From IMG/VR virus record IMGVR_UViG_3300042348_001285: a DNA stretch of 64,000 nucleotides. One strand, 5' to 3'. This DNA is from a virus (lineage: Duplodnaviria > Heunggongvirae > Uroviricota > Caudoviricetes). Within the stretch, counting starts at the first letter, position 1. Each line of letters starts with the position of its first letter. Under the pieces are notes generated by a model. It had not been told where the DNA came from. It worked only from the letters and a program-made list of their open reading frames with translations, and did no database searches. Made by a program: the position numbers and the translations under genes. Positions 8,617 through 28,123 of the stretch are shown piece after piece.

Positions 8617-8638
8617 AAAAAAGCCCCCTTTCGGGGGC
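8617..8638 (-). terminator. Rho-independent terminator after the capsid/tail tube transcript
   Basis: Minus strand GCCCCC-GAAA-GGGGGC followed by TTTTTT. Confidence 0.85.
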
Positions 8639-8656: not shown

Positions 8657-9100
8657 TCAAGTTCTGTCCCAAATATTGACGGTCAGTTCCACTTCAATTT
8701 CCTGGACGTTTCCGCTGTCGCGATCAACGTTGGCAGTAGTGATTGATAGGAATTTACAACCGTAGCAGGTGTACGCGCCACCGGCTGGAGCAGATCCTGT
8801 ACCAGTACAGTCCCTAGGGGTTACTGTAACGGTAACATCTTGACAATTGTAGTTTAACCAGAAGTTCTCTAATTGCTTGAAGATCGTAGGATCATACGGA
8901 GCAGTAAGAGTAACATTATCTGCAGTTCGTGGGCCAACGACATGGTACTTTCGGTTTCCAGTGCCATTGGCGTATTCGCTCTTTTCGGAAGAATCTTTGA
9001 TACCACTGAATTTTGTGAAAACAGCGATTAAAGACACCCCGTTGGGAGCTACGAACGATACCTCGTATTGCGACTTTGTTAAAGGTCTGAGAATTGCCAT
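8657..9100 (-). CDS. Tail tube protein
   Basis: 147 aa with a contractile-tail tube signature (FTKFSGIKDSSEKSEY, DNVTLT, ANVDRDSGNVQEIEVELTV). GAGGTG RBS upstream. Confidence 0.75.
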   Translation of the reverse strand: MAILRPLTKSQYEVSFVAPNGVSLIAVFTKFSGIKDSSEKSEYANGTGNRKYHVVGPRTADNVTLTAPYDPTIFKQLENFWLNYNCQDVTVTVTPRDCTGTGSAPAGGAYTCYGCKFLSITTANVDRDSGNVQEIEVELTVNIWDRT

Positions 9101-9128: not shown

Positions 9129-12100
9129 TCAGGACAAGATGTTGGTGATCATAGCTCCAGAACCGGTAAGACCAGATGCACCGAGGCCAACCAAGTTAAC
9201 CACACGTTCGATGGTGATTTCAGCACGCACGACACGGCGTTCGCGAATGTAGTACTCCAATTTGTTATCGTAAAGGCTCTTTATCCCTTGCTTCTGCATG
9301 TTTCTATGCAGTTCAGACTATATCATCGTTTTGTAAACAAAACGTCAGGCGCTCGTGGATTGTTCACCTGTTCTAGGCTACTTAATCTAGTCGTTGAACC
9401 TTGCTTTTATCCCTAAAAGCCTTGGCTGCTGATTGCCTTGTGTTTCAAGGAATTCACTCCTGAAACCGTCAGGTTTCCCAGCAATTCACCTAATTTCTTT
9501 TTATGTCAGACCCCAGTAGTTAAGGACGGACAGCGGGTGTTCCTGTGAGTTGATCATTTTTGTTAGCGTAAAGGTTATTTATCCTTCACTTCTTTACATT
9601 TCTGCAAAGATCAGACTATATCTTCTTCCTTGCCTTGTGTTAAAGCTAAGGAGTAGGGCGCTCGTGGAGTTTTCATCTGTTCTAGATTACTAACTCTAGT
9701 CGTTGAACGTTCGTTTTCTCCCGAAAACGCTTCGCTGCTGATTACCATAGCGTCAAACTTTCGTTTGAAGCCGTAGGCTTCCCAGCAATTCACCCCATTG
9801 ATCTGCGGATCAGGCAGATAATTTGACGTTACCGTCAAACCACGCATTCAACTCGTTTGAAAGAAACGATGTTATTAACATACGTGTCGATTATGTTATC
9901 GTAAGGCTCTTTATCCTTACTTCTGCATGTTTCCATGCAGTCCAGACTATATCATCTTATTGTTTCTTTTAGTTCGTATCACTGATTCCCTTATTTTAAC
10001 CTTTTGCTCCTCTGACATCTTGTCATTCCCGTTTTTTCTACGGGTTTCCCAAGCTCTTTTTGCAGCTTCCACTGCTTTGGGGGTCTTGGTTCCAGCTGGA
10101 CCACAGTTATAGGGCTTCCAGCCGGAGGCAATAAGCTTCTTTTTACTTTCACTTTGCTTCTTACGAGTTTCTTCGGAAGCAACAGGGTTTCTTTTGTACT
10201 GGTCTAAGAACCGGGTGGTTCTAATAGTTCCGGTACTATCCCTAAGCGTTCTACACACGGCCCAAGCATCTTTGTAGTGCCGGGTAGCTTTGTACAGAAG
10301 CAAGTGAGCTATAGCATGCTCTCTAGGAGTTAAAGGTACAAGGTTGACAGGGTGGTCCCACTTTTTATAGTGTTTAGGCAATATGTGATGCCTATGGAAC
10401 CCTTTCTTTTTACAAGTCCAGTTTCTTATAGACTTATAGTGAAGAACTAATTTAATATACCGTCTACCATAATGGTTATCGGGTATCCAACAATAAGGAA
10501 GGCTTTCGTGGAGATTTTCTATCAGGGTTAAGAGCATCTCTAGTCGTTGAACGTTTGCAAACAAGTTTTACCCTTTGTTTACACTTCGCTGCTGATTGCC
10601 CAATCTTAAGAAGTTTTTAACTATCACGATTACCCTTTCAGGTTGCGTTGTAGTCTCTTAAGCTCTAAGGGGTTTCCAGCAATTAACCTTCTTTTACTTG
10701 CGCTACACAGTTTCTTGTGAATGAAACAATGTTATTCAACGCAAAAGCAGGAGTCGCAGCATTAGCACCACCCGCAGGCATGATCGAATCAGAAGGGCCG
10801 TTGGGGCTGTAGAACAGGAGGATGCCATTGGCGGGGAAGACAGGCTGCAAGGAGCCGTCGTTGGCCAAATAACGCCCTTCAGCTACGCGCAGGCCACGCT
10901 CAAGACCGAAGTAGCGAGCGATGACATCTGTGTCGATGCTATTGGCGGAGGTGTATTTGATACGATCAAGGATCGCTTCGTTGGTCAGCAAGAGGTCGAA
11001 AACCGAAGTTCCAAGAACAGCGGAGTTCGGACGAATGCCGATCTGGTTGGCAACAGCACGCTTCAGAGTCAGGATGTCCTCAATGGGATTAGAGGTTGCA
11101 CCAGACCATGCGGCAGGGCCAGTGGCTGTGCCATAAGCGGTGTTGAAGGCGGTCCAGGTTGTAAAACCAAGACCAGTTTGTGAGCCAGGAGTCCCATTGT
11201 AGGGCTCGTATGGATTGTAGCTGCCAGTCACTGAAACAGCTTGAGCAACGGTGTACTCGTAGCTGTTCATTCATTATGTTATCGCGAGGGCTCTTTATCC
11301 CTTGCTTCTGCATGTTTCTATGCAGTTCAGACTATATCATCGTTTTGTAAACAAAACGTCAGGCGCTCGTGGATGGGTTATTATTTTCGGTATTCACCAT
11401 CTAGTCGTTGAACCTTTTGACTACAACTCTATTATAGCATAGAGTCCGAAATAGTCAACTTGGCTGCTGATTGCCTTGTGTTTCAGAGAAGCCACTCCTG
11501 AAACCGTCAGGGTTCCCAGCAATTCACCCAATTTTCTAAATGAGATTAATCTCATAGGGCCAATGTGTTTAGCCTAGACATCGCATTGCGAGTCTCGATG
11601 GCGCGTAGCATTTGTTAACTCAGCGGCTCTTTATCCACTGATTCATTACCTTGTCGTTGGTAATGTTCAGACTATATCATAGCATTGAAAAAGTTTTCCA
11701 GTCTTGGTCCTCGTCTGGTATCCACTTATTCCCCTCTGGACAGAGGGATTTAAGGTCTCCATTAAAGGCTTTGACGATATTTGACAAAGTTTGAGAGTTC
11801 GGGGTACCTGTAGCTTTGGCTAGCCTTAGGCAACCGCTACTTCCCACTTTTCTAGGGATAAATTGATAGTGAAAGTAAAGATAGTCTGCAATCTTCCAAA
11901 GGTCTCGGGTTTTACTTGACGCATTGTTATTATCCCAAGGTTTACAGACTAAGGATGGGTTATTTAGTCTCCCTCTCCCCCCGCATCCAACGGCAAACCT
12001 GTAATCTTCAGTAACGTAGGGTAATCCAGTTTTTCCCTTATTGTGGGGAACGGACCTACTGTTCATGAAATTTTTCCAAATACTTGGAAGATTTGTGGCT

Positions 12101-15100
12101 ATGGATGTTTTATTTTTCCCCCTACCAAAATGGTCTAAAAATCTCTTTAAGGAATAAGATTTAAACAGACCTGACTTCACCAGTAAAAGATGAAGTATAA
12201 AGTGTTCCCTAAATGTAACCCCAACCGTCCAAATTACCAAATGGCTTCTCCACCCATCCGGCCAAATTTCTTTGGGTACAGGGTGATGGCACTCATATTG
12301 TTCTGGAAGTTGGCATCTTTTCTCAAATTTGTCGATTAAACTCCAATACCACTTTTCATATTTATTATGATAGTGGCACTCAATGCCCCGGGCGCTCGTG
12401 GATGGGTTATTATTTTCGGTATTCACCATCTAGTCGTTGAACCTTTTGACTACATTCCCATTATAGCATGGGGACCGAAATAGTCAACTTGGCTGCTGAT
12501 TGCCCACGCGGGGGTTCCAGCAATTCACCCGGTTTATAGTGGACCTACGCTGCGATCGAAATCGTCCGTAAAAAATAATCCACTTGTGCAGGCAAAATGT
12601 TGTTACCGTACGGGCTCTTTATCCCATACTTCTCCATGTTTCCATGGAGTTCAGACTATATCTTTGCCCCACCGTTAAGCACGGTAAGACATCAGGCGCT
12701 CGTGGAGTTTTCATCTGTTCTAGATTACTAACTCTAGTCGTTGGACCTTGCTTTTATCCCTAAAAGCCTTGGCTGCTGATTGCCTCTTTTGCGTAGCAAA
12801 AGTAAGGTGTCCCAGCAATTCACCCAATTTTTAGTGACCTTTGTCACAAGGAAGGCCCTTACAACCTTCCCCTGCGTTTTCAATAACCTCTTCCAAGGTT
12901 GTTATCACAAAGGCTCTTTATCCTTTGCTTCTGTAAATTTACCATCTTTACAGTTCAGACTATATCACCGTCTATACCCTCCTATAAAGGTTAGTCAGAC
13001 GTAAGGCGCTCGTGGAGTTTTCATCTGTTCTAGATTACTAACTCTAGTCGTTGAACGTTCGTTTTCTCCCGAAAACGCTTCGCTGCTGATTGGCCATTAA
13101 GTTGGAGGCTTTCCAGCAATTCACCCTATTATTCTTACCGCGCTAACTAGGCAACGGCAAGGCCCAAAGATTTAGGCAATTCCCATGCGACCACTTCCTG
13201 CTCCAGAGCGTAGGGCTCAGAGTCGTAACGGCTTTGGACGTAGGGGATGTTTGTCATTTGTTATCGCAAAGGCTCTTTATCCCTTGCTTCTACATGTTTC
13301 CATGTAGGTCAGACTATATCTTTGCCTTACATTCTTATGTAAGACATCAGGCGCTCGTGGAGTTTTCATCTGTTCTAGATTACTAACTCTAGTCGTTGAA
13401 CCTTGCTTTTATCCCTAAAAGCCTTGGCTGCTGATTACCATAGCATCAAACTTTCGTTTGAAGCCGTAGGCTTCCCAGCAATTCACCCAATTTATTTACG
13501 GCACAAACTAATTACCGTAAGCACGACGGAAGTCGTTAATAGCAACACCATGTTATCGTAGAGACTCTTTATTCCCTACCTCTGCATGTTTCTATGCAGT
13601 TCAGACTATATCATCGTTTTGTAAACAAAACGTCGGGCGCTCGTGGACGAGTTATTGTTGTCGAAACTCATCGTCTAGTCGTTGAACCTTTCCACTACAG
13701 AAATCATAGTGATTCCTCGACGCAGTAGACTTGGCTGCTGATTTCCCTCGCCTTTACGTTAGGGGTTCCCAGCAATTCACCCAATTTTACAACAGCAAGC
13801 TATTTACTGTTCCTTACCGAATCTCAATATTCTACCAGCTCGGGTAGGTGTGTCCACAACTGGTGCGATAAACACTTGTTACCGTGAGAGAATTTATCAC
13901 TCACTTCTTACAGTTTCCTGTAAGTTCAGACTATATCATCATCTTCCTTAAACGTTTTAACAACGGTTTTTAGAGATTGCCAAGTGTTACCTAATTTTGT
14001 TATCCTATGGAGCCTTCTGGCACCACACTTTCCGTTTTCTGCCCAGGCTCTATGCAAGACATCTAAGTTAGACCAAACTTCTTTATCTGCGCGAGGGTTA
14101 TTAGCCCCCGTTCGATCTCTGTCTGGGTTATTAGCTGCTTGTATTGCAAACTGGATGGTAGGATTACTTATGGCTCTGTCTCTAAGTTTTTGTTTTGACT
14201 CTTCACTCCAAGCCCTATTTTTACATCTCTCTGCGCGAGCAGTTCTTTCTTCGTCAGACATTGGGACTTTCCTGGGCCTAGCTTTTCCTTTATTGGACTT
14301 GCTAATTTTGACTTTAGTTTCTTCGGAGTGCCCGTGGTGAGCCACCTTTTCGTAAACCCGTGAGTTCTTTGAAGACTTTTTGAAAGAGTTTATAGCTTTA
14401 CCCAGTTTCTTCACGGAACTGAAAGCTAAAGCTAATAAACAATGGGATATATAGTGCTCTCTGTAGGTAAGTTTAACTAGGTTGGCTTCATCGTTTCCAC
14501 CCTTCATGCACTTGGGCACTATGTGGTGAATATGGAAACCACCCTCTTTGACCAAACCTCTAGAGGGGCGAGAGTTAATAAACTTTACATACCGTTGGTA
14601 ATGTAAGGGAGAGTCGGGCGCTCGTGGAAAGATTATTCTTGGGTCAGTCACTTTCTAGTCGTTGAACCTTTTTACTCATTGTTACCCCTATTATATCGGG
14701 TAACTGCCCAAAGTAAACTCGGCTGCTGATTGCCTTGTGTTCCAGAAAAGTAGATTCTGAAACCGTCAGGTATCCCAGCAATTCACCCGATTTTCAATCA
14801 GAGTTGCCTCTGAAGGGAACCTTATCGATTCGCAATGTTGGTAGACGGTAGCATGAAACCTTGCGCGAGGGTGGTGAGACATTTGTTAACGTAGAGGCTC
14901 TTTATCCCCTACCTCTCTTTGTTTCCAAAGAGTTCAGACTATATCACCGTTTTGTAAACAAAACGCCCGGCGCTCGTGGAGTTTTCATCTGTTCTAGATT
15001 ACTAACTCTAGTCGTTGAACCTTGCTTTTATCCCTAAAAGCCTTGGCTGCTGATTACCATAGCGTCAAACTTTCGTTTGAAGCCGTAGGCTTCCCAGCAA

Positions 15101-15733
15101 TTCACCGGATTTTCTTTGTTAAAAACAAAGCCACTCCTTTAAATGGGCAATATGTTATCGCAAAGGCTCTTTATCCCTTGCTTCTACATGTTTCCATGTA
15201 GGCCAGACTATATCATCATCCTTTAACTCCCATGCTGAGGAGTCAAGGAGCTGGGCGCTCGTGGATTGTTCACCTGTTCTAGGCTACTTAATCTAGTCGT
15301 TGAACGTTCCGTCAATCCCTTGACGGCTTCGCTGCTGATTGCCTCTTTTGCGTAGCAAAAGTAAGGTGTCCCAGCAATTCACCCAGTTTTCTGCCATCAT
15401 TAAAATGACAGGGACCCTAATTAATCCACACCTGCGTAGGTCTGTTGTAGCATTATGTTATCGTAAAGGCTCTTTATCCTTCACTTCTTTACATTTCTGC
15501 AAAGATCAGACTATATCATCATCTTTGCCTAGGCAAAGAGTCGGGCGCTCGTGTCAGCTTCATTACTGTTCTAGTAGTATGCTGTTAGTCGTTGGACCTT
15601 GCTTTTATCCCTAAAAGCCTTGGCTGCTGATTACCATAGCATCAAACTTTCGTTTGAAGCCGTAGGGTTCCCAGCAATTCACCCAATTTTCATCCCAAGG
15701 TTACCCTTGAGCGGAACCGCCATGATTCATCAT
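9129..15733 (-). CDS. Major capsid protein, 351 aa, 14 exons interrupted by 13 group I introns
   Basis: Exons in transcription order: 15733-15725, 15450-15424, 15147-15143, 14879-14828, 13872-13806, 13545-13514, 13254-13174, 12893-12864, 12592-12578, 11608-11571, 11271-10739, 9887-9882, 9554-9523, 9257-9129. They sum to 1056 nt (352 codons, no internal stop): MMNLQQTYAGVDPILTTLAQGFMLPSTNIANFIAPVVDTPTRAGRILRFGKEQFAINDFRRAYGTNIPYVQSRYDSEPYALEQEVVAWELPEEVIENAGEGPAQVDLRAIETRNAMSRLMNSYE...ATPAFAYTYQLTGTPAVRPEYYIRERRVVRAEITIERVVNLVGLGASGLTGSGAMITNILS. It follows the protease and decoration genes, and its size fits a capsid protein. Family call by resemblance and position, not by search. Confidence 0.9.
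9258..9522 (-). mobile_element. Group I intron 13 (265 nt, no ORF)
   Basis: P/Q/R/S present. P1 CCU/GGG; P10 AGUA/UACU. Splicing restores AVRP|EYY. Confidence 0.88.
9555..9881 (-). mobile_element. Group I intron 12 (327 nt, no ORF)
   Basis: P/Q/R/S present. P1 CACGU/GCGUG uses the 6-nt exon; P10 UCAACUC/GAGUUGA. Confidence 0.92.
9888..10738 (-). mobile_element. Group I intron 11 (851 nt) with HNH ORF in P8
   Basis: P/Q/R/S present. P1 UUGCGU/GCGCAA; P10 ACAC/GUGU. Confidence 0.92.
9947..10537 (-). CDS. Intron-encoded HNH homing endonuclease with NUMOD3-like repeats
   Basis: FHRHHILPKHYKKWDHPVNLVPLTPREHAIAHLLL, SEETRKKQSES and MSEEQKVKIRES. Likely start is ATG 10537 just after R (the track starts at 10564). 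Confidence 0.85.
   Translation of the reverse strand: MLLTLIENLHESLPYCWIPDNHYGRRYIKLVLHYKSIRNWTCKKKGFHRHHILPKHYKKWDHPVNLVPLTPREHAIAHLLLYKATRHYKDAWAVCRTLRDSTGTIRTTRFLDQYKRNPVASEETRKKQSESKKKLIASGWKPYNCGPAGTKTPKAVEAAKRAWETRRKNGNDKMSEEQKVKIRESVIRTKRNNKMI
11272..11570 (-). mobile_element. Group I intron 10 (299 nt, no ORF)
   Basis: P/Q/R/S present. P1 GGCU/GGCC; P10 AAUG/CAUU. Confidence 0.9.
11609..12577 (-). mobile_element. Group I intron 9 (969 nt) with HNH ORF in P8
   Basis: P/Q/R/S present. P1 GUGGAU/GUCCAC; P10 CUACGC/GCGUAG. Confidence 0.92.
11677..12429 (-). CDS. Intron-encoded HNH-like homing endonuclease
   Basis: YECHHPVPKEIW...VTFREHFILHLLL (HNH-like). The C-terminal segment resembles that of the intron 4 ORF. 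ATG immediately follows the R element. Confidence 0.8.
   Translation of the reverse strand: MVNTENNNPSTSARGIECHYHNKYEKWYWSLIDKFEKRCQLPEQYECHHPVPKEIWPDGWRSHLVIWTVGVTFREHFILHLLLVKSGLFKSYSLKRFLDHFGRGKNKTSIATNLPSIWKNFMNSRSVPHNKGKTGLPYVTEDYRFAVGCGGRGRLNNPSLVCKPWDNNNASSKTRDLWKIADYLYFHYQFIPRKVGSSGCLRLAKATGTPNSQTLSNIVKAFNGDLKSLCPEGNKWIPDEDQDWKTFSML
12593..12863 (-). mobile_element. Group I intron 8 (271 nt, no ORF)
   Basis: P/Q/R/S present. P1 GGAAGGU/GCCUUCC; P10 CCU/AGG. Confidence 0.92.
12894..13173 (-). mobile_element. Group I intron 7 (280 nt, no ORF)
   Basis: P/Q/R/S present. P1 GCCU/GGGC; P10 GAAGA/UCUUU. Confidence 0.9.
13255..13513 (-). mobile_element. Group I intron 6 (259 nt, no ORF)
   Basis: P/Q/R/S present. 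P1 UUACGGU/GCCGUAA; P10 ACAAAC/GUUUGU. Confidence 0.92.
13546..13805 (-). mobile_element. Group I intron 5 (260 nt, no ORF)
   Basis: P/Q/R/S present. P1 AACAGU/GCUGUU; P10 GCUA/UAGC. Confidence 0.9.
13873..14827 (-). mobile_element. Group I intron 4 (955 nt) with HNH ORF in P8
   Basis: P/Q/R/S present. P1 GAAU/GUUC; P10 UUUAUCG/CGAUAAG. Confidence 0.9.
13926..14651 (-). CDS. Intron-encoded HNH homing endonuclease with NUMOD3-like motif
   Basis: FHIHHIVPKCMKGGNDEANLVKLTYREHYISH (HNH) and HSEETKVKISKSNKGK (NUMOD3-like). The stop codon lies in the intron S element. Confidence 0.88.
   Translation of the reverse strand: MTDPRIIFPRAPDSPLHYQRYVKFINSRPSRGLVKEGGFHIHHIVPKCMKGGNDEANLVKLTYREHYISHCLLALAFSSVKKLGKAINSFKKSSKNSRVYEKVAHHGHSEETKVKISKSNKGKARPRKVPMSDEERTARAERCKNRAWSEESKQKLRDRAISNPTIQFAIQAANNPDRDRTGANNPRADKEVWSNLDVLHRAWAENGKCGARRLHRITKLGNTWQSLKTVVKTFKEDDDIV
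14880..15142 (-). mobile_element. Group I intron 3 (263 nt, no ORF)
   Basis: P/Q/R/S present. P1 CCAU/GUGG uses the 5-nt exon; P10 UCU/GGA. Confidence 0.88.
15148..15423 (-). mobile_element. Group I intron 2 (276 nt, no ORF)
   Basis: P/Q/R/S present. P1 GGAU/GUCC; P10 CC/GG; terminal G. Confidence 0.88.
15451..15724 (-). mobile_element. Group I intron 1 (274 nt, no ORF)
   Basis: Core elements on the minus strand: P GAATTGCTGGGA, Q AATCAGCAG, R GTCCAACGACTA, S GATATAGTC. Terminal G. P1 is exon GAAU with IGS GUUC. P10 is weak. Confidence 0.85.
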
Positions 15734-15854: not shown

Positions 15855-15880
15855 AAAAAAGGAGCCCCTTTCGGAGCCCC
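15855..15880 (-). terminator. Rho-independent terminator between decoration gene and capsid gene
   Basis: GGGGCTCC-GAAA-GGGGCTCC (8 bp with two G.U pairs) followed by TTTTTT. Confidence 0.75.
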
Positions 15881-17251: not shown

Positions 17252-19822
17252 TCAGTTAGAAGTCCAAAGGCAAGTTTTGATGGCTTCCAAGTAGTCGGAG
17301 GCTTCACCGCGTTTTACCATTTCAAGGGCTCTTTCATGGGGATCCATGTTTTCTAAGGTTGCTTCAAATGCTTTGTCTTCCGGTCCAACAATTTCCCCAA
17401 AATGCACCATGCTTGGCAGGCGATTTAAGATCGCAAAGAGTTTGGATGTTGGTGTTTCACCTTCAGAGAATTCCAAGGTCCCAAATTCTAAACCTTCGCA
17501 GAAACTTTGCAGTTCATCTTGCTGAATGATAGCATTGGTCAGTTTGCCGTCGCTATAAAGATTCTCAACGTAGTGGGAAATCCTTTGTTTATGGGCATGA
17601 ACTTTCTGCTCTTCGAATTCCCTTTTGAGCCTATCGTTTTCTTGCTTAAGGGCCTCAATCTCCTTGTAGATTTGGGCGGGGAACCCAGTCGGGCGGGCTT
17701 GACCTGCAGAACCCATTCCGCTATACTTAACTTCTTCTTCCCCGTCAGAACAAGCTCCCATGGAACCCTTGGGCTCCCTATAAGTCGAACCCTTGCCTGT
17801 TACGGTCATCGGGTCTCCCTCTTCGGCTGCCTTTTTACGGCGGGATATTTCACCTTCAGCATGATTGACGGATGCCTTCTCACCGGACTTCTGACGGACA
17901 ACCCGGACCTTATCACTTTGGGTAGCATCCTTTACGTCAACTGCCATATCGAGATCATCAGGATCTTCCTCAGAGCGAGTTGGGAAATCAGTCGGACCAC
18001 CCTCGCGGCCACGGGGGGCTTTACCACTGGAAGTCTTGGCGGATTTCGGTTCTCGGACGACTCCCTCTTCATCAGGCTCACCACCTTCGGCATGGTCGGC
18101 AATTGGGCCACCTTTGAGTGGGGCTCTTTTGTCGCTGGATGACTGATGAATGACGCGGGAAGTTTTGTTACCTTTAACTGATTTGACATCTACTGCCATA
18201 TCGAGATTGTCGGGGTCTTCCTCAGAAAGGTTAGAAACTGGGGTGGGCCCTTCGCTGCGGCCATGAGGATCCTTCCCATCGGAAGTTCCAGGGCGTTGCT
18301 TCTCTGGGTACTTGGTGCTGGCATCGTCATACTGATCGTTGTTTCTATCTTTGGCCATAGTGTCTTGACCGGCCCAACGACCTTCCTGACTATTGTCACC
18401 ATCTTCCTCTCTGGCAGTTTTTAGGCGGTCCTCGTCTTGTTCGCTATTTTTTGCAGTCTTGAGACGGTCCTCGTCTTGTTCACCATCGCTGGTTACACCA
18501 TCGCGGTCTTCCTCTGGGGCTTTACCAGCCTTTTGACGGGCACCGTAACTATCATCTCTAGATCGGGCAGTAACTGAGCGGCCAGTAACTTTATCTCCGG
18601 TTTCACCTTTGTGAGTACCAAAGGATACTTTCCCATTAGATGCGGTTTTGTGACTAACTTCGTCGTACTCTAGTTCATTGTACTCTGAATCCTCGTCATC
18701 CATTTCCTCTTCGTCCATGTCCGCTTCGTCAACAGGTTGACTGGGGGCTTTCTTTTTCTTGGACTTGGAAACTTCCTTATGCTGAGAATCGATACCTTCC
18801 TCAAATACTTGCTCAACAACCTGAACCTCCTGGCCACCAGCCCCTTTAGAGACACGGCGCTTAATGCCTTCCTCGAATTCGGTGTCTTGGCGCTCTGGTT
18901 CATCCTCGGGGGAGTCCATCATTTCGGACTTTTCGCCACCTTCGGTAACTTCCTTGAATTCCCCGTCTTCTTCGGTATCATCAAGTTTGGCTTCGGGGGA
19001 AACTTTTGATTTGGACATTTTTGGCTTGTTTTCTGGTGCTTTGGTTTCTAGATTGGCTACTTCTTGAGTAGACTCAGTGATTTCAGCGCCTTCGCGCCCC
19101 AAGTTCTTTTTCATTTCAGAGAATTGCTGATTAGGGTTATCGGGGTTGGCGTTTTGATCCGCCGAATTTGTGGTTTCAGGTTGTTGGCCTTGGCCGACAT
19201 CCGGTTCTGTTTGTTGGTCCTGGTTTTGTTCTAGTTGCTGTAGGGACTGATTGACTTCACTTTTGACTTCATCTAGTCTTTCTTTTAGCATTTCTAGGGG
19301 ACTTTTTTCTATAAGCAGCGTCGGTCCTAAGTCCTTATCAAAAATTTGGTCAGGGGACAGGGCCACCGCAAAGTCGAAAACTCCCTCTTCTTCGCTGAAA
19401 GAGAATGGCTCCAAGCCTTTCACAGCTGGGGGTGCAGCTCCGAGCAATGCCAAATGCCTTGCACTCCACTTGCCTTTGTGTGGGTTAATGGGGGAATCGG
19501 GGGAATAGAAGGAAATGGAAACTTTCCTATAATGACCACCTCTAACTAAGTCCTTAGCTACATCCGTAAATTCTACATCTGCATATAAGTCATCACCCTT
19601 TTGAGAGAATCCTTTAATCCACCCGTAAGCAGGTACGCTGTCGTTATCTCCAGAGTGGCCAATTACAAGGGGGGCTGAATGGACTTTGGGGTCATATGAG
19701 TTTGCAACTTCCTTAAGGTCGTCAGCAGAGAAGTTTCTCTGCACACCCTGTGCGCTAGTTTGGGGGCCAGCTTTAAATACGTGGACTTTTTTTGAGAACA
19801 CTTTTTTATCGGATTTACTCAT
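17252..19822 (-). CDS. Mu gpI-like prohead protease with long acidic scaffold region
   Basis: N-terminal ~150 aa carry APLVIGH, PAYGWI, YRKVSISFY and RHLALLGAAPPAVKGL. About 700 aa of acidic low-complexity sequence with internal duplications follow. Confidence 0.85.
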   Translation of the reverse strand: MSKSDKKVFSKKVHVFKAGPQTSAQGVQRNFSADDLKEVANSYDPKVHSAPLVIGHSGDNDSVPAYGWIKGFSQKGDDLYADVEFTDVAKDLVRGGHYRKVSISFYSPDSPINPHKGKWSARHLALLGAAPPAVKGLEPFSFSEEEGVFDFAVALSPDQIFDKDLGPTLLIEKSPLEMLKERLDEVKSEVNQSLQQLEQNQDQQTEPDVGQGQQPETTNSADQNANPDNPNQQFSEMKKNLGREGAEITESTQEVANLETKAPENKPKMSKSKVSPEAKLDDTEEDGEFKEVTEGGEKSEMMDSPEDEPERQDTEFEEGIKRRVSKGAGGQEVQVVEQVFEEGIDSQHKEVSKSKKKKAPSQPVDEADMDEEEMDDEDSEYNELEYDEVSHKTASNGKVSFGTHKGETGDKVTGRSVTARSRDDSYGARQKAGKAPEEDRDGVTSDGEQDEDRLKTAKNSEQDEDRLKTAREEDGDNSQEGRWAGQDTMAKDRNNDQYDDASTKYPEKQRPGTSDGKDPHGRSEGPTPVSNLSEEDPDNLDMAVDVKSVKGNKTSRVIHQSSSDKRAPLKGGPIADHAEGGEPDEEGVVREPKSAKTSSGKAPRGREGGPTDFPTRSEEDPDDLDMAVDVKDATQSDKVRVVRQKSGEKASVNHAEGEISRRKKAAEEGDPMTVTGKGSTYREPKGSMGACSDGEEEVKYSGMGSAGQARPTGFPAQIYKEIEALKQENDRLKREFEEQKVHAHKQRISHYVENLYSDGKLTNAIIQQDELQSFCEGLEFGTLEFSEGETPTSKLFAILNRLPSMVHFGEIVGPEDKAFEATLENMDPHERALEMVKRGEASDYLEAIKTCLWTSN

Positions 19823-19824: not shown

Positions 19825-21597
19825 TTATTTTTTACCCTTGACCTTGTTTTCCATCTCTGATATTATAGAGTCTAATTCTCCATCGGAAATTCCACTTGTG
19901 GATTCGGTCTCATTTGCCTCTTCCTCAGGGAGTTCCCCCGGTTCGGATTCCCCTGGTTCTTCAGCCAATGCAGAGTCTAACTCGGATAGTAAGGAGTCTA
20001 ACTCTTTGTTGGCTTTGCTATTTTTCTTTTTTGGTTGCTTTTCTACAGGGGGTTGCTTTGTTGGAGTTTCTTCATTCGGAGTCATCTCATCCGGGGTTTC
20101 TTCAGTTGGGGTCACCTCAGCCGGGGCCATCTCATCCAGGGTTTCTTCAGTCGGGGTCGTATCATCCGGGGTTTCTTCACCCTGAATTCCCTCATCCGGG
20201 GCCCCTTCATCTGGGGCCACCTCATCCGGAGTCATCTCAGTGGTAGATCCAAGGGGCCCTTCAGCATCCCCACCCGAACCATCTTCTGGACCGAAAATCG
20301 ACTCATATAGGTTCTTATCCTTTTCAGGGTCAAACGTAGTTTCACCTTCGCTACCCTGTTGGCCTTCAGCAGATTTGGCCTCATCTTCTAAATCAACTCT
20401 AAAGTGCCTCTCAATCCATTCTCTACGGGGTTTGAAACCATTTTGAATCAATAGGGAAACATCAGCGGGTGTCAGTTGGGACTCCTCAATTCTGAACTCC
20501 CTAGTTAAGGTCGGAGATGCAACATCAGCACCGAAATTTAAATCTACAATCCACCTTACCAAAGTTTGAGTTAGTTGATGACAGATCATTTCTGATATCT
20601 CAGATGCCCTCACCACTCGAACTACGTTAGCAACCATCGACGAAGCCCTGGAACCAGACTCAGCCTGCCCAGCTTCATTTTCACCGCAAATCAGAAGGCT
20701 AATGACTTTATCTAGGTAGTCAATCAAGCCTTTAAACACATCGGGGCTACCTTCAGGGTTAATAAAATCCAATACGAACCCTTCAGGTAAAACCATCGCG
20801 GTCTCTTGGGATAAATTTGAGATCATCCCATAAATATTATCGATTTCGGCTGTTGATGCACTTAGGGGGGCAGTTGCTACGGTAGTCGGGGTTGCATATC
20901 TGTCACCATAAAGGACATAAGACTCTAATGCCCTCCTCCTAAACTTCACCAGGGGGTATAAAATACGACCAATCGAAGAACCATAGGGATCCCCATTATG
21001 CTGAGTCCAGTACCTATTGATGATGAATTTACGCGCAGGTAGCTCGATACCTTCAAACATCCTGTTGAATGTCAAGCAACGCATTGTAAAACCTGTTTGA
21101 GAATCCTCAGCTTCTTGGAAGACAAATCGGCGCTGGTCTCTAACTCGAACATCAAATGGGATGACACCCCGCTTGGTTTTCTTCCACATTACTTCCGCAA
21201 CACTGAAACCAACAATTAAGGCTTCGGCTAAGCCTTTGAAAATATCGTCTATTGGCAACTCCTCTAAAACTTCTGCTACAAAGTCCCTGACGGCTAAATC
21301 CCCAGGTTTATCGCTGTATTCCTGAACATACCATGGCCTAGACGTAACTTCCTGGAGCAACTTAGAGTAAGAACCCTGGACTTGTTCATCCAATAGCAAC
21401 CTTTGGTAAGTTGATAATGCGCGATTACCTCCCTTTTGGATTAGTAGGTCGTCATTAGGGCGAACAATGCTGGAACCAGTCCCCGTAAAAGGAGAGCTAG
21501 AACCAAACATGTAAATGGAACTAAGCGCATACGGGTTACTGATGTACGAGCTTATTTCACCGGTTGGGACAGGCGATGTCTTAAATCTTTTGGCCAT
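19825..21597 (-). CDS. Portal protein (DUF935/Mu gp29-like)
   Basis: GLAEALIVGFSVAEVMW, NGDPYGSSIGRILY, YGDRYATP, GSRASSMV and PTLTREF motifs, then an acidic C-terminal repeat tail. Confidence 0.85.
   Translation of the reverse strand: MAKRFKTSPVPTGEISSYISNPYALSSIYMFGSSSPFTGTGSSIVRPNDDLLIQKGGNRALSTYQRLLLDEQVQGSYSKLLQEVTSRPWYVQEYSDKPGDLAVRDFVAEVLEELPIDDIFKGLAEALIVGFSVAEVMWKKTKRGVIPFDVRVRDQRRFVFQEAEDSQTGFTMRCLTFNRMFEGIELPARKFIINRYWTQHNGDPYGSSIGRILYPLVKFRRRALESYVLYGDRYATPTTVATAPLSASTAEIDNIYGMISNLSQETAMVLPEGFVLDFINPEGSPDVFKGLIDYLDKVISLLICGENEAGQAESGSRASSMVANVVRVVRASEISEMICHQLTQTLVRWIVDLNFGADVASPTLTREFRIEESQLTPADVSLLIQNGFKPRREWIERHFRVDLEDEAKSAEGQQGSEGETTFDPEKDKNLYESIFGPEDGSGGDAEGPLGSTTEMTPDEVAPDEGAPDEGIQGEETPDDTTPTEETLDEMAPAEVTPTEETPDEMTPNEETPTKQPPVEKQPKKKNSKANKELDSLLSELDSALAEEPGESEPGELPEEEANETESTSGISDGELDSIISEMENKVKGKK
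20060..20240 (-). repeat. Imperfect 15-nt (5-aa) tandem repeats in the portal C-terminus
   Basis: TPDEV/APDEG/APDEG/TPDDT/TPTEE/TLDEM/TPTEE/TPDEM/TPNEE. Boundaries approximate. Confidence 0.7.
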
Positions 21598-22347: not shown

Positions 22348-25300
22348 TTAACCTAAGCCTCTTGATTGAAGTTCATTGCTCATTTGACCAATGGAAACTC
22401 TAATCAATCCAACATCGATTCTTTCCATTGTTGGGACAGGGACATCATAGACTTGGACATTGACGATTCCGTTTTCCAGATCTTCGACCCTGTTGATCCT
22501 TTCGTCGCAGATGACTTGGAAAGCATCCGAAGGCTTAGCACCATAAAGAGCACCTTCGTTGTAAAGTTGACCCATGACGCTGTTGCCAATGGTGACAATC
22601 TGGTTGAAGATAACTCCAAAGCCATCAATTACTGAGAAGATTTGATTATCAAATACCCTGCGGAGCGAACCATAAACAACGTTTTGGATGACGCGGGTGT
22701 TGACAAATTGGAACTTACGTTGTTCGGGGATGGCAGGATTGACCCTGGTTCTTCCTCCCCAGATGAAAATCGCAGAAGAAGCATAGCCAGGCAGGGTCCT
22801 AGCAACGTTGCAGCCCCTGGGGTTCAACAGGTTCTGTTGAGCAGAGTTGACAGAAAGTTGAACACTAACGGCATCGACAAGTTGATACTTAGTGCCAGCT
22901 GGGGGGAATTGGAACCCTTCTGAGCGATAACGTCTTAGTGCAACTCCGGCCACATACGGGGAGAGAGGAATGTACTGACCCGCTGAATTAAGGATGTGTG
23001 GGCCATAGTAGGCAATAAATCCAAAAGCGTTAAAGTAGCGTTGGCTATCCTCTAGCAAGCGTGCTACATTATCGACACCGGCCTCTATGAATACCGCCTC
23101 TGGTTCACCTGAATTTCCCACCCCACGTAAAGCATCATCGATAATCTCAGTGGATGTAATGGCATCAAAGTTCCACAAATTGGTTAATGGTGTTTGCTCT
23201 TCGGTTAATACAAGTTCGACTTGTGAGCCATGGCACACATGGCCAACCGAAGTAAGATCACCACCAAGGCTATTAGCAGGGACCACAACCCAGTCGTAAC
23301 TGCCCCCGTTAAGCACCACAGCAATCCGGTCACCCACCTTAACTGCAGTCATACCGTCTGGTGCCACAGAGTTTGTTGGTGCCGAGGTCACTTGGAAGTA
23401 GACACCACCCAAATGGCTGATAGAAGACTGAATGTTAATGCCTGTGCTGGAAACGGCTAGTCCGCAAGCTACTGCATAAGGGGAAGCTACATCAAGAAGT
23501 CCTGTGCCAGCAGTGGTATTAGCCTCGTAGTCGCCACCGTAGATGGCGTCAATGGCTGGAACTATGAAGGCCTGGGAGGTAAAGTTTTGGTCTGTAGTCG
23601 GGGTGCAAATATAGTTTTGAGTTGAACTCTGCGTTGCACCCGGATTAACTAAAGCCAAGGTGGGCAGCCATCCAGCAGATGTGGTTTCACCATAGGGGAA
23701 AATCAACTCCTCACCAAGGATCTTGGAACTCCTATTAAGATACATGGACACAGTCGGGTTGCCAGCTCCGGGGGCTGGTGCCACCGATGCGTCAGCAGCC
23801 TGGCTTGCGATAATACCGCTGTTTAAACCATATTTCCGAGCCCTAATTAGGGGGATAGTGGTTAGTTCGGCCAAATTAACAGAAGTCAAGTTACCACCCA
23901 GTACTCCGGAGTACAAAATGGTGGGCTTTGTGGAAATAGAGCCAGATGGGAAAGTAATGTATGAGCCAGACAAATACCCCGTATAGCTAGACGCTAGCAG
24001 GATGGTATCATTATCAATGACCTTGGCAAAGTAAGGATTAATGGAGTTAGCAGTAGTTGCCTTTAGCAAAGTCGTGGTGCCAGCCAAAACAGCTTGCGTG
24101 AAGAAGACTCTTTGACCATTGACTAGACCATGCTTATTGATGTCTAGTGACGCATGAGCAGTAGTACTACCGGCCATGGTATAAGAATTGATACCCTCAG
24201 AAGGGTCAAATAAAGTCCTTGAGATGAAATTCAGCCTATAATCTCTGGTTGAATCCTGAAGGGTTGCAGGAAGGTGCAATGTATTAACTCCCTTTGTTTC
24301 CCCTGTGATATTTTGAACCAGGTTAGAGGTTTGCCCCTGAATTTCAACAGGCCAATTCCAGTCAGGTGTGCCGTAAGTGACGACCGCTGTAGATCCGGTT
24401 GGGGTGTTAACTACATAAGCTCCATTTGCTGCAGCTACACCGTTAGCTACAAGGTCAGTGCCCCCAGCAGCCATAACCGCTGTCAACACTGCAGTAGCTT
24501 CAGATGCTGTTTCTGTGATGTAGACATATTGAGTGCTGCTATTAGAAGGATAAGCACAGAACAGATTCTCATCATATGGGGGTGCTACAATGTAGACAGT
24601 AGCTGAAGTTTCATCCATGCCGAATAATCCACCGAAGTCTGCACCAGCGTTGCTGATGGTTACCTCTTGAATTTCTTTCCCAACTGGCCAAACAGCACCA
24701 TCAACGACGAAAATGCCATTCTGGGACAAACCAGAAACAGACTCCAATGCAAAGACAGCTGGGTCTAAAATGCCGACCTTCTCGCCAGCGGCTACAGTTG
24801 CTGTAGATTGTAGTACTGCGACCTTTGGGCTATGGCCAGGGATCATAGATTGGTATGGCAAACGTCTGTAAGTAACGTCATTGCCGGTCCATTCGTAGAT
24901 GGTATTATCAACCAAATACTTCAAGCCCATTACCAAATCTTCGGCAGGCTGATGTGGGGTATAGTTTTTATACTTATTGATATCTGTAACTAAGAACGAG
25001 CCACCGTCTGCCAAAGCCAGCCACTTAAAGTTACCATCTTCGCAATGGGCAGCAGCAGCAGCTCCCACGGCAGTTCTACCTGCAGCATCAAACTGTGCAT
25101 ATGCAGTGGGCGATAGCAGATATCCCTGGTCTTGTTGTCCGTCAAATGCAGTTCTGATGCACTGAACATAGTCTTGAGGGACCCTTTCCAGGCTAGTCTG
25201 GGCACAATCAATAGTTCCGACCACATAGCAATCGGTCATTAAGATTTTAGCAGCGCCTACAATGAATTGTTCAGGTACTACTTGGATAGTCCCGTCAAAA

Positions 25301-25998: not shown

Positions 25999-26173
25999 TT
26001 TATATTTAGTATTCCCCCTTTACCTAATCCTCGTACCGGCGGGGATAACTCCGGTGGTGGTGCCCGTAGGCCAAGGATTGTTTATGGACAATTAATATTT
26101 ACCCACCACTAAATTGACATCCTTTCCGGCCTGAATAGTGATGTCCCCCAGCCAAAGATTAGTGGTTTTTATT

Positions 26174-26539
26174 CTATTGGTTGCCAGTATCGGAATGAAC
26201 ACTAGCGGCTGACCAACCGTTGTTTCTTTCTACATCACTTAAAGACAATCTAGTGTATCTCGATAAGGACTCAGCGTAAGACTCTTGAGAAGTGAAGGGG
26301 AAGAAGTCTCCAACAGAGTTTGTAACGGGGGACAGTACGGGGGATTGTTGCGTCAATCCTACAGACATAGCTGGCCCCGAAACACTACCCGGGTTAAGAA
26401 TTGTCCCTAAAGGGGGATTTTTTACTACGGACCATGTGGGGTTATTCTCCAGAACTTCCCTATATGAGAGGGAGTTTGAGTATAGAGCAAAACCCAGTCT
26501 TCTCCAGGTTGAACCAGATTGAAAAACTAGGTTTGCCAT
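26174..26539 (-). CDS. Putative tail protein X/LysM-like baseplate protein
   Basis: N-terminal QSGSTWRRLGFALYSN...VLENNP fits a gpX/LysM-like pattern. Confidence 0.45.
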   Translation of the reverse strand: MANLVFQSGSTWRRLGFALYSNSLSYREVLENNPTWSVVKNPPLGTILNPGSVSGPAMSVGLTQQSPVLSPVTNSVGDFFPFTSQESYAESLSRYTRLSLSDVERNNGWSAASVHSDTGNQ

Positions 26540-26542
26540 CTA

Positions 26543-26992: not shown

Positions 26993-26994
26993 GG

Positions 26995-27818: not shown

Positions 27819-28123
27819 TCAACTACAACTTCCCCCATTGCCTTGCCGACTAACTCACTGATTTTTTTGATGTCTGAAAGACGGAGATCAGCAATTTCGT
27901 CAAAGGAAATTTTATCCTCACCGATTGTTAATCGTTCGGCCAATAGAAAGCTTTGCTTGGCTTGTTTGAATTCACCAAGTTCTTCTTCTAGGTAAATTAA
28001 ATCCCTGCCGGTCATTTCCCTAATTGTGAGGGTTCGGCCGTCAGACAAAGTTTCACTATAAGTCTCAAGCCCAGTGACTGGTGTAGTCTTTACTGTGGTG
28101 GTTTCGTTGGATACGGTTCGCAT
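27806..28123 (-). CDS. Tail assembly chaperone (G form)
   Basis: 105 aa, LTIREMTGRDL...DEIADLRLSDIKKISELV. Ends at GAC CCA AAA TCT TAA. Confidence 0.65.
   Translation of the reverse strand: MRTVSNETTTVKTTPVTGLETYSETLSDGRTLTIREMTGRDLIYLEEELGEFKQAKQSFLLAERLTIGEDKISFDEIADLRLSDIKKISELVGKAMGEVVVDPKS

What the first reader, a model, noticed from the sequence alone, without database searches (positions are those of the whole stretch)
9129..15733. Major capsid gene split by 13 group I introns (14 exons; only 16% of the 6.6 kb gene is coding)
Seen: 13 copies of a group I core (GAATTGCTGG / AATCAGCAG / CAACGACTA / GATATAGTC). Each 5' exon ends in U and each intron in G. Joining the 14 exons gives one 351-aa ORF from ATG 15733 to TGA 9129, and each intron's guide sequence pairs with its own 5' exon (P1) and usually its 3' exon (P10). 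Established: phage group I introns usually number one to a few per gene and mostly sit in DNA-metabolism genes such as T4 td, nrdB and nrdD. Inference: the most abundant virion protein needs 13 self-splicing events per mRNA, an extreme architecture that gene callers miss entirely. It may make capsid output depend on Mg2+, guanosine or temperature.
Basis: partly seen in the sequence, partly recalled or inferred. Interest (0 to 1): 0.95.

Follow-up and report, generated by a model that had tools for sequence, protein, structure and literature searches.

The report
Phage capsid gene with 13 introns
The major capsid gene of a large freshwater phage is cut into 14 pieces (two of only 5 and 6 bases) by 13 self-splicing group I introns, the densest such stack I know of in a phage or bacterial protein gene, and public lake RNA assemblies contain copies of close relatives' genes from which the same introns are precisely missing.

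Summary
Confirmed. Rfam's group I model hits 13 times on the minus strand of 9258-15724 (11 above gathering, two at 46.8 and 43.3 bits). Removing the 13 introns leaves 14 exons, 1056 nt and 351 aa, 16% of 6605 bp. Every 5' exon ends in U and every intron in G. Each guide sequence pairs with its own exon (0 of 100,000 permutations reach the observed sum).

An intron-less allele differing from the spliced protein at 4 residues matches a major-head-protein profile end to end. It folds (pLDDT 88.9) into an HK97-type capsid protein. The gene sits after portal and protease genes.

Three introns carry HNH homing-endonuclease ORFs.

In 51 full-length related loci the gene holds 0 to 13 introns at 16 sites. 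A complete 279 kb relative also has 13 and no second capsid gene.

One contig from a listed lake metatranscriptome, and four from apparent ones, are 100% identical to intron-bearing genomes but lack introns exactly at the predicted junctions. These cover 10 of the window's 13 sites.

Best reading: a pile-up of selfish mobile introns, all of which must splice. Any regulatory role is untested. The introns are of a known kind; their density and the micro-exons are new.

The parts
15725..15733 (-). exon 1 (9 nt, ATGATGAAT = MMN); AAGGAA ribosome-binding site about 11 nt upstream
   Evidence: intron-less allele L015 reads MMNLQQTY
15451..15724 (-). intron 1 (274 nt, CDS site 9, no ORF)
   Evidence: RF00028 93.7 bits; P1 GAAU/GUUC
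15424..15450 (-). exon 2 (27 nt)
15148..15423 (-). intron 2 (276 nt, site 36)
   Evidence: RF00028 87.1 bits; 99% identical to the same-site intron in L046
15143..15147 (-). exon 3, micro-exon of 5 nt (CCCAT)
   Evidence: the protein junction VDPIL is contiguous in L015
14880..15142 (-). intron 3 (263 nt, site 41)
   Evidence: RF00028 86.8 bits
14828..14879 (-). exon 4 (52 nt)
13873..14827 (-). intron 4 (955 nt, site 93) with an HNH/NUMOD3 homing-endonuclease ORF
   Evidence: RF00028 50.0 bits; P10 of 7 bp
13926..14651 (-). homing-endonuclease ORF of intron 4 (241 aa from a GTG). It starts just after the 5' strand of P7 and runs into the P8 loop.
   Evidence: phrog_655 E 4.9e-32, Pfam NUMOD3; HNH motif
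13806..13872 (-). exon 5 (67 nt)
13546..13805 (-). intron 5 (260 nt, site 160)
   Evidence: RF00028 93.2 bits; 3' splice site fixed by relatives that read KEQFAIND
13514..13545 (-). exon 6 (32 nt)
13255..13513 (-). intron 6 (259 nt, site 192)
   Evidence: RF00028 93.0 bits; P1 of 7 bp, P10 of 6 bp
13174..13254 (-). exon 7 (81 nt)
12894..13173 (-). intron 7 (280 nt, site 273)
   Evidence: RF00028 64.4 bits
12864..12893 (-). exon 8 (30 nt)
12593..12863 (-). intron 8 (271 nt, site 303)
   Evidence: RF00028 85.9 bits; P1 of 9 bp
12578..12592 (-). exon 9 (15 nt)
11609..12577 (-). intron 9 (969 nt, site 318) with an HNH-type ORF
   Evidence: RF00028 46.8 bits, E 1e-9; P1 of 7 bp
11677..12429 (-). 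homing-endonuclease ORF of intron 9 (250 aa). Its ATG lies directly after the 5' strand of P7.
   Evidence: phrog_655 E 6.3e-7; shared HNH motif
11571..11608 (-). exon 10 (38 nt)
11272..11570 (-). intron 10 (299 nt, site 356). It keeps the first 13 codons of the intron-9-type ORF and then a stop.
   Evidence: RF00028 86.9 bits; sequence
10739..11271 (-). exon 11 (533 nt, the only exon a gene caller would find)
   Evidence: Pfam Phage_cap_E, phrog_1005; 58.6% identical to the S-CBWM1 major head protein
9888..10738 (-). intron 11 (851 nt, site 889, rare) with an HNH-type ORF. Its conserved G is changed to T (TAATTGCTGG), which creates the in-frame TAA.
   Evidence: RF00028 43.3 bits, E 1.1e-8; 98.6% identical to L048 at the same site
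9947..10564 (-). homing-endonuclease ORF of intron 11 (205 aa from a TTG; an ATG lies 9 codons in)
   Evidence: phrog_655 E 1.1e-18
9882..9887 (-). exon 12, micro-exon of 6 nt (ACACGT)
   Evidence: AF[A/S]YTYQLTG is contiguous in L014 and L015
9555..9881 (-). intron 12 (327 nt, site 895)
   Evidence: RF00028 81.9 bits
9523..9554 (-). exon 13 (32 nt)
9258..9522 (-). intron 13 (265 nt, site 927)
   Evidence: RF00028 82.8 bits; 99.6% identical to L016 at the same site
9129..9257 (-). exon 14 (129 nt including the TGA stop)
15861..15880 (-). intrinsic terminator of the upstream gene. It is followed by a TATAAC -10-like box; RNA-derived contigs of relatives start about 60-70 nt before the ATG.
8623..8638 (-). 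intrinsic terminator after the tail-tube-like gene (8657-9100), the likely end of the roughly 7.2 kb capsid pre-mRNA
   Evidence: the contiguous part of contig L015 stops at the homologous T-run

Best explanation
The gene is the phage's only major capsid gene. It has been colonised by 13 paralogous group I introns with a P7.1/P7.2-type extension, of the kind found in Bacillus, Staphylococcus and Clostridium phages. A pre-mRNA of about 7.2 kb is transcribed. Each intron folds, pairs its own guide sequence with the last 4-9 nt of the upstream exon (U.G at the splice site), and is removed by the usual two transesterifications. Only after all 13 removals is there a 1056-nt ORF for a 351-aa HK97-fold capsid protein. 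An in-frame stop lies before P4 in every intron, which would keep ribosomes out of the ribozyme core. Three introns still carry HNH homing-endonuclease genes whose N-termini are encoded by the core itself; the other ten are ORF-less. The stack arose by selfish spread. Homing between co-infecting relatives spread introns, ORFs were later lost, and modules recombined between introns. Shown: the ribozyme cores, splice-site rules, P1/P10 pairing, the capsid identity of the product, the intron polymorphism, and precise intron-less RNA-derived copies in close relatives. Inferred: self-splicing of this window's own introns, endonuclease activity, and the route of spread.
For: All 13 introns hit RF00028. 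In an alignment of 38 non-redundant introns, 29 of 43 predicted pairs show compensatory changes across P3, P6, P7.1/7.2, P9 and P9.1. P1 is specific for the cognate exon (0 of 100,000 permutations). An in-frame stop precedes P4 in 13 of 13 introns and P3 in 12 of 13, against about 8 of 13 in the other frames. The intron-less allele L015, which differs from the window's spliced protein at 4 residues, covers phrog_1005 positions 3-305 of 315 (E 2.4e-52), matches Pfam Phage_cap_E and PDB 3bjq (E 5e-28). Its AlphaFold model (pLDDT 88.9) matches 3bjq, lambda, P23-45 and HK97 capsids. The order is portal, protease, capsid. In 51 full-length related loci the gene has 0-13 introns at 16 sites, and 11 sites have ORF-containing versions somewhere. 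Same-site introns in other genomes are 81-99.6% identical (10 of 13 at 91% or more), against 74-90% for the best in-window paralog. The complete 279 kb, terminally repeated relative G002 has 13 introns and no second capsid gene. For RNA evidence, contig L031 comes from IMG 3300012708, a listed rRNA-depleted metatranscriptome. It is 100% identical to the 85 kb contig L039 but lacks exactly the introns at sites 93, 318 and 895. L015 is 100% identical to the 127 kb contig L018 over 5.4 kb of flanks and exons but lacks all 11 of its introns. The same exact 351-aa protein is on only four short contigs: samples 3300012770, 3300012772 and 3300012777, whose neighbours 3300012771 and 3300012778 are listed metatranscriptomes, and a Logan assembly.
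Against: There is no RNA from this exact genotype. Sites 36, 889 and 927 have no RNA-level support even in relatives. The sample type of 3300012770/72/77 and SRR5839259 is inferred from neighbouring ids, not read from a record. An intron-less strain that is transcribed would give the same contigs. L031 retains three introns, so splicing may be slow or incomplete at some sites. Insertion sites are no more conserved than the rest of the gene, which is not what simple targeting of conserved sequence predicts. Ten introns have no endonuclease of their own.
Confidence: 0.9

Rival explanations
1. The intron stack is kept because it benefits the phage. The three endonucleases would cut intron-less capsid alleles of co-infecting relatives (gene drive or marker exclusion). 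Alternatively, 13 obligatory splicing steps could time or gate capsid production. This reading can coexist with selfish spread.
For: Intron-bearing and intron-less alleles at 99.6-99.8% identity occur on DNA contigs. Many relatives with different intron sets turn up across lake samples. Three intact-looking HNH ORFs are present. An intron endonuclease that aids competition between co-infecting phages has been reported for PhiPA3 (PMC11620839, abstract).
Against: No test was done here. Twenty-three of 51 full-length relatives do without any intron. Ten of the 13 introns carry no endonuclease. The fully spliced yield falls as the 13th power of per-intron efficiency, which is a cost.
Confidence: 0.25
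2. The intron-less RNA-derived contigs are transcripts of genuinely intron-less strains rather than spliced products. On this reading splicing in vivo has not been shown.
For: DNA-level presence/absence polymorphism at near-identical sequence exists for the site-9 intron.
Against: Within the 95-100% clade every DNA locus (L014, L016-L019, L046) carries 9-13 introns where the gene is complete (L019 holds only its 3' part, with 3). The only intron-less copies are the four short contigs from one sample series. L015 and L018 are 100.00% identical over 5.4 kb while differing by 11 introns. L031 is a mixed, partly intron-less form with no DNA counterpart among the loci. L095, L096 and L031 start about 60-70 nt before the ATG, and the contiguous part of L015 ends at a terminator T-run.
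Confidence: 0.1
3. The arrangement is an assembly artefact, or a dead capsid pseudogene in a defective phage.
For: The introns share 40-170 nt modules that could confuse short-read assemblers.
Against: All 14 exons are collinear and in frame. Assemblies under separate IMG sample ids show 13, 13, 11, 11 and 9 introns in the same order. The complete 279 kb genome has no other capsid gene. Compensatory changes show selection on the ribozyme structure.
Confidence: 0.02

Closest known systems
Single group I introns in phage capsid genes: mycobacteriophage LittleE, and lactococcal phage Tuc2009 as cited there (PMC3706429)
   Same: A self-splicing intron, with or without a homing endonuclease, interrupts the major capsid gene. 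The 5' exon ends in U and the intron in G. Splicing was shown by RT-PCR and N-terminal protein sequencing.
   Different: Those genes have one intron. Here there are 13 in a 1056-nt coding sequence, with exons down to 5 and 6 nt and 16 sites used across the clade.
Intron-rich Jug jumbo phages of the gut (PMC12880540)
   Same: Large phages with many group I introns (18.5 per genome on average). [quoted passage not shown]
   Different: There the introns are spread over many genes and terL is in 2-3 pieces. Here most of the load sits in one gene: 13 in the capsid gene plus 3 in the primase gene of the complete relative G002.
T4 td, nrdB and nrdD introns; the SPO1/Bastille DNA polymerase introns (I-HmuI, I-BasI); Staphylococcus phage Twort orf142 with three introns (Twort recalled from memory)
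   Same: The ribozyme type is the same. The cores are 75-82% identical to introns in Bacillus phages (lying under I-BasI or HNH annotations) and in Clostridium phages. HNH-type ORFs are present, and in-frame stops follow the 5' splice site (general point in PMC3984707).
   Different: Those have one to three introns per gene, mostly in DNA-metabolism genes.
[quoted passage not shown]
   Same: One conserved gene accumulates many mobile group I introns at many sites, and occupancy varies between strains.
   Different: Those are organelle or rRNA genes. This is a phage protein-coding gene, where translation is presumed to be coupled to transcription, so ribosomes could interfere with ribozyme folding.

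Membership tests
Group I self-splicing intron (Rfam RF00028) | Conserved catalytic core P3-P9 in sequence and structure | tested here: met
   13 of 13 hits, E 9e-24 to 1.1e-8, 11 above the gathering score. 29 of 43 consensus pairs covary.
Group I self-splicing intron (Rfam RF00028) | 5' splice site after a U that forms a U.G pair in P1 with an internal guide sequence | tested here: met
   All 13 introns, P1 of 4-9 bp. Cognate specificity: 0 of 100,000 permutations. Junctions were fixed independently by intron-less alleles.
Group I self-splicing intron (Rfam RF00028) | Terminal (omega) G at the 3' splice site, with P10 pairing to the 3' exon | tested here: met
   All 13 window introns end in G. 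P10 of 3-7 bp is seen in most. One relative's intron ends in A; that intron is not in this window.
Group I self-splicing intron (Rfam RF00028) | Precise excision from RNA in vivo | tested here: inconclusive
   Seen only in close relatives. Sites 93, 318 and 895 are supported by a listed metatranscriptome. Sites 9, 41, 160, 192, 273, 303, 318 and 356 are supported by contigs from samples that are very probably metatranscriptomes. There is no RNA of this genotype, and none for sites 36, 889 or 927.
Group I self-splicing intron (Rfam RF00028) | Protein-independent splicing with guanosine and Mg2+ in vitro | not testable with these tools
   Needs a bench assay.
Subgroup IA (P7.1/P7.2 extension) | Extra helices between P7 and the 3' strand of P3 | tested here: inconclusive
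   A covarying hairpin lies at that position (alignment columns 143-146 paired with 169-172). The cores resemble Bacillus phage polymerase introns. No subgroup-specific model was available.
HK97-fold major capsid protein (Pfam Phage_cap_E, phrog_1005) | Full-length match to the family profile | tested here: met
   Tested on L015, the intron-less allele that differs from the window's product at 4 residues: phrog_1005 E 2.4e-52 over positions 3-305 of 315, and Pfam PF03864 at 33.7 bits against a cut-off of 22.9. The window's own large exon gives the same families.
HK97-fold major capsid protein (Pfam Phage_cap_E, phrog_1005) | HK97 fold | tested here: met
   AlphaFold2 model with pLDDT 88.9 and pTM 0.87. 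Foldseek finds 3bjq (TM 0.70-0.82), then P23-45, lambda, YSD1 and HK97 Head II capsids.
HK97-fold major capsid protein (Pfam Phage_cap_E, phrog_1005) | Position in a head module, and the only copy in the genome | tested here: met
   Portal is at 19825-21597 and protease at 17252-19822, both upstream. It is the only capsid homologue in the complete relative G002.
HNH homing endonuclease (phrog_655) | HNH catalytic motif and DNA-binding NUMOD modules | tested here: met
   phrog_655 E 4.9e-32, 1.1e-18 and 6.3e-7. NUMOD3 is found in the intron-4 ORF. The motif HH-PK...N...REH is invariant in all three. There is no PDB sequence hit.
HNH homing endonuclease (phrog_655) | Cleavage of the intron-less target allele | not testable with these tools
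   Needs a bench assay.

The most novel reading that the evidence does not exclude
One intron family has undergone a burst inside a single phage gene, reaching at least 16 sites. New sites would be reached by ectopic transposition: reverse splicing into sites that share the 4-6 nt recognised by the guide sequence, or retargeted endonucleases. Sites 9 and 93 both follow GAAT, and sites 36 and 318 both follow GTGGAT. The stack would then be maintained as a multi-locus gene drive and exclusion weapon among co-infecting lake phages. If so, this would be, to my knowledge, a rare natural system for watching group I introns colonise new sites in a gene within a viral population.
Probability: 0.25. 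Interest if true: 0.9.

Novelty: new variant of a known kind. Interest (0 to 1): 0.82.

Why it matters
Group I introns in phage genes are textbook, but normally one to three per gene. Here the most abundant virion protein depends on 13 ribozyme reactions per mRNA. Two exons are shorter than a ribosome footprint, and exon 1 is only three codons long.

This raises several questions. How efficient and how ordered must splicing be: at 90% per intron, only about 25% of transcripts would be complete. How is folding protected from translation? How do introns multiply within one gene?

The clade has 0-13 introns at 16 sites and public RNA data, so it is a ready natural experiment on intron gain, endonuclease loss and intron recombination.

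In practice, gene callers see only one 195-aa fragment, so capsid-based phage detection and classification would mis-annotate these genomes.

Tried and rejected
- My first exon 1 (24 nt) and first 3' splice site for intron 5 gave 357 and then 356 aa. Intron-less relatives showed both were wrong.
- The window's own assembly is not held, so no search of its whole genome was possible.
- An AlphaFold run on a shallow 12-sequence alignment failed (pLDDT 33.5). It succeeded only with 119 diverse homologues.
- I tested whether insertion sites sit in unusually conserved DNA. They do not: 0.861 against 0.858, with 9009 of 20,000 random site sets as high.
- The in-frame stop enrichment is modest against the other frames, so it carries little weight.
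- Literature searches for the sample ids found nothing. Searches for a prior description of this capsid-gene architecture also found nothing.
- The stored copy of the metatranscriptome list is truncated and lacks 3300012770, 3300012772 and 3300012777 themselves.
- The phage tyrosyl-tRNA synthetase shows no special likeness to the fungal splicing factor CYT-18: 1y42 scores E 1.8e-14 against 9.4e-73 for bacterial enzymes.
- My spliced-alignment script forces T...G boundaries. It therefore misplaced the relatives' site-93 intron as '98' and failed on three loci (L020, L029, L072), which I left out of the counts.
Full report
**The observation.** Rfam's group I intron model (RF00028) gives 11 hits above its gathering score in the whole 64 kb window, all in this interval. 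On the region alone it gives 13 hits, with E from 9e-24 to 1.1e-8. No other Rfam family and no tRNA was found in the window.

**The exon map.**
- tblastn with the closest isolate protein placed all exons in order. That protein is the 341-aa major head protein of Synechococcus phage S-CBWM1, which is 58.6% identical over the large exon.
- My first map was wrong at two boundaries. A related virus record and an intron-less allele corrected them.
- Exon 1 is only ATGATGAAT. Intron 5 ends at ...ACATGGTG.
- The final map has 14 exons of 9, 27, 5, 52, 67, 32, 81, 30, 15, 38, 533, 6, 32 and 129 nt.
- Together they make 1056 nt, or 351 aa. The 13 introns are 259-969 nt long and total 5549 nt, so 16.0% of the gene is coding.
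- Every 5' exon ends in T and every intron in G.

**Are these working ribozymes?**
- Each intron has a guide sequence that forms a U.G pair at the splice site plus 3-8 further pairs with its own upstream exon. The cognate sum is 70 pairs, against 44 +/- 5 when introns and exons are permuted, and 0 of 100,000 permutations reach it. The junctions were fixed independently by intron-less alleles, so this test is not circular.
- P10 pairing with the downstream exon is present in most introns.
- In an alignment of 38 non-redundant ORF-less introns from the window and relatives, 29 of 43 consensus pairs show compensatory double changes. They lie in P3, P6, a P7.1/7.2-type hairpin, P9 and P9.1, while P4 is invariant. 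This shows selection on structure.
- An in-frame stop lies before P4 in all 13 introns and before P3 in 12, compared with about 8 of 13 in the other two frames. This known feature of phage introns is thought to keep ribosomes out of the core (PMC3984707).
- The cores are 75-82% identical to introns in Bacillus phages (lying under I-BasI or HNH annotations) and in Clostridium phages. Staphylococcus and Streptococcus phages supply most of the other matching records.

**What the gene encodes.**
- The intron-less allele L015 differs from the window's spliced protein at 4 residues.
- L015 matches phrog_1005 'major head protein' over positions 3-305 of 315 (E 2.4e-52). It also matches Pfam Phage_cap_E above its cut-off, and PDB 3bjq at E 5e-28.
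- With a 119-sequence alignment, AlphaFold2 gives pLDDT 88.9 and pTM 0.87.
- Foldseek returns 3bjq (TM 0.70-0.82), followed by the P23-45, HFTV1, lambda, YSD1 and HK97 capsid proteins.
- Upstream lie a Mu-type portal gene (19825-21597) and a head maturation protease gene (17252-19822). Downstream lie a tail-tube-like gene and baseplate genes.
- Strong intrinsic terminators flank the unit at 15880-15861 and 8638-8623, and none lies inside it on this strand.

**The homing endonucleases.**
- Introns 4, 9 and 11 carry ORFs of 241, 250 and 205 aa. These match phrog_655 'homing endonuclease', and one also matches NUMOD3.
- They share an HNH-type motif but are only 25-36% identical to one another.
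- Read directly from the sequence, each ORF starts just after the 5' strand of P7. It reads through P7.1/7.2 and the 3' strand of P3, and the bulk sits in the P8 loop.
- ORF-less intron 10 keeps the first 13 codons of the intron-9-type ORF and then a stop. This looks like an ORF deletion.

**Relatives.**
- IMG/VR holds 80 loci whose capsid large exon is 40-99% identical, mostly 79% or more.
- I wrote a spliced aligner and cross-checked each call with nhmmer profiles of the 5' and 3' intron halves.
- Among 51 loci with the full gene, the intron number is 0 (23 loci), 1-6 (23), 9 (1), 11 (2) or 13 (2).
- Sixteen insertion sites are used. In the 1056-nt coordinate these are 9, 36, 41, 75, 93, 150, 160, 192, 273, 281, 303, 318, 356, 889, 895 and 927.
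- The window occupies 13 of them. It lacks 75, 150 and 281, and has the rare site 889.
- Eleven sites have both ORF-containing and ORF-less versions somewhere in the clade. This is the pattern expected from cycles of homing followed by endonuclease loss.
- Same-site introns in other genomes are 81-99.6% identical to the window's (10 of 13 at 91% or more). The best in-window paralogs are 74-90% identical.
- Some introns are mosaics. For example, the site-356 intron is 98.8% identical over 172 nt to a site-281 intron of another genome.
- Thirteen of the 16 sites lie in the first 356 nt, about a third of the gene.
- The sites are no more conserved than the rest of the gene, so this clustering is unexplained.

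**Not an artefact.**
- Assemblies under separate IMG sample ids carry 13, 13, 11, 11 and 9 introns in the same collinear order.
- One of them is a 279 kb record with direct terminal repeats and a CheckV completeness of 100%. It has no second capsid homologue.

**RNA evidence from relatives.**
- Contig L031 comes from IMG sample 3300012708. The supplementary list of bioRxiv 10.1101/2022.02.15.480533 gives this as an rRNA-depleted metatranscriptome at 43.099 N, 89.405 W.
- L031 is 100% identical to the 85 kb contig L039 in four blocks. The three gaps are exactly the predicted introns at sites 93 (263 nt), 318 (967 nt, with ORF) and 895 (329 nt). The introns at sites 9, 36 and 75 are retained.
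- Contig L015 (sample 3300012770) is 100% identical to the 127 kb contig L018 over 4186 nt upstream, every exon, and 1213 nt from the large exon through the downstream gene. It lacks all 11 of L018's introns.
- The exact 351-aa protein occurs on only four contigs in the 153-billion-gene index. All are 1.4-5.8 kb long and come from 3300012770, 3300012772, 3300012777 and a Logan assembly of SRR5839259.
- The neighbouring ids 3300012771 and 3300012778 are listed as rRNA-depleted metatranscriptomes at 46.83 N, 72.5 W. The stored list is truncated, so the three ids themselves could not be checked.
- L095, L096 and L031 begin about 60-70 nt upstream of the ATG, just after a TATAAC box. The contiguous part of L015 ends at the terminator T-run.
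- Within the 95-100% clade every DNA locus carries 9-13 introns where the gene is complete. L019 holds only the 3' part of the gene, with 3.
- Together these contigs cover 10 of the window's 13 sites. Sites 36, 889 and 927 are not covered.
- Exact 20-mers spanning 8 of the window's 13 predicted junctions occur as contiguous sequence in related contigs.
- The remaining doubt is that these are transcripts of an otherwise identical intron-less strain. I rate that at about 0.1.

**Mechanism and cost.**
- The most likely account is a pile-up of selfish mobile introns in the only capsid gene. All of them have to splice.
- If each intron splices with efficiency p, the fully spliced yield is p to the 13th power: about 51% at 0.95 and about 25% at 0.90.
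- The partly spliced contig L031 suggests that intermediates are abundant.
- Exon 1 is three codons long, and its last four bases form P1 of intron 1. A ribosome sitting on the start codon and the folding of intron 1 must therefore compete. This is inference.
- The 5-nt and 6-nt exons are both P10 partner of the upstream intron and P1 partner of the downstream one, which implies an order or a competition between neighbouring splicing events. This is also inference.
- Whether the stack benefits the phage, as a gene drive or exclusion weapon or as a timer, is open.

**Comparison with what is known.**
- Single introns in capsid genes are known from LittleE and Tuc2009 (PMC3706429).
- Intron-rich jumbo phages are known, with 18.5 introns per genome and terL in 2-3 pieces (PMC12880540).
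- I found no report of anything close to 13 introns in one phage or bacterial protein-coding gene, nor of this capsid intron hotspot.
- The introns, the endonucleases and the capsid fold are all members of known families. What is new is the architecture: the intron density, the micro-exons and the 16-site hotspot within one clade.

Noticed in passing
window 49245-50444 (-): The phage encodes a tyrosyl-tRNA synthetase (phrog_9270, E 1.6e-74). It is of bacterial type: best PDB hits are 6bqy and 1h3e, and the fungal group I splicing factor CYT-18 (1y42) scores only E 1.8e-14. It is present at 93% identity in the 13-intron complete genome G002. It was not found in the 98%-complete 5-intron genome G003. 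The fungal mitochondrial enzyme moonlights as a group I intron splicing cofactor, so the co-occurrence is worth a bench test, but nothing here supports such a role.
   Followed up: partly
L018:7292-7568, and the same intron in L014, L016, L017 and L046 (site 93): In five relatives the site-93 intron ends ...GTTTTGTATATTA, with A rather than G as its last base. The intron-less contigs join GCGAAT directly to TTCATAGC, and a 6-of-7 P10 pairing supports that junction. Splicing at the nearest G would shift the frame. This may be a natural group I intron without a terminal G. The window's own site-93 intron ends normally in G.
   Followed up: partly
L098:1879-2955 (= G002:C1:20378-21454): In the complete 279 kb relative the DNA primase gene (phrog_25243, in two large pieces) is split by three more group I introns (58-83 bits). 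That region lies outside this window.
   Followed up: partly
L028, L030-L035, L038-L040, L042, L044, L092 (site 75): A 215-nt insertion at site 75 matches the 5' half of the intron profile but not the 3' half; it has no GATATAGTC. It is retained in the RNA-derived contig L031. It could be a truncated or differently built intron, and how it is removed is unclear.
   Followed up: no
window 9258-15724 and related loci: Thirteen of 16 insertion sites lie in the first 356 nt of the gene, though these are no more conserved than the rest. Pairs of sites share the exon bases that pair with the guide sequence: GAAT before sites 9 and 93, and GTGGAT before sites 36 and 318. Reverse splicing into look-alike sites would produce this pattern.
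   Followed up: partly
window 11272-11570 compared with L014 site 281; other introns: The introns are mosaics of shared modules. The window's site-356 intron is 98.8% identical over 172 nt to a site-281 intron of another genome, but only 81% identical to its own same-site counterpart. This points to recombination between introns at different sites.
   Followed up: partly
L015:5742-5837: The last 96 nt of this contig repeat part of the large capsid exon, joined directly to the terminator T-run. This looks like a chimeric join at an RNA 3' end made during library preparation or assembly.
   Followed up: no
window 22348-38352 (-): The rest of the window encodes a 1216-aa tail sheath, a 996-aa DNA polymerase, a 922-aa DNA methyltransferase fusion and a topoisomerase II subunit. 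None of these has an intron hit. Related records reach 277-279 kb, one of them complete with terminal repeats, so this is probably a jumbo contractile-tailed phage from freshwater lakes. The closest isolate is Synechococcus phage S-CBWM1, and the host is unknown.
   Followed up: partly
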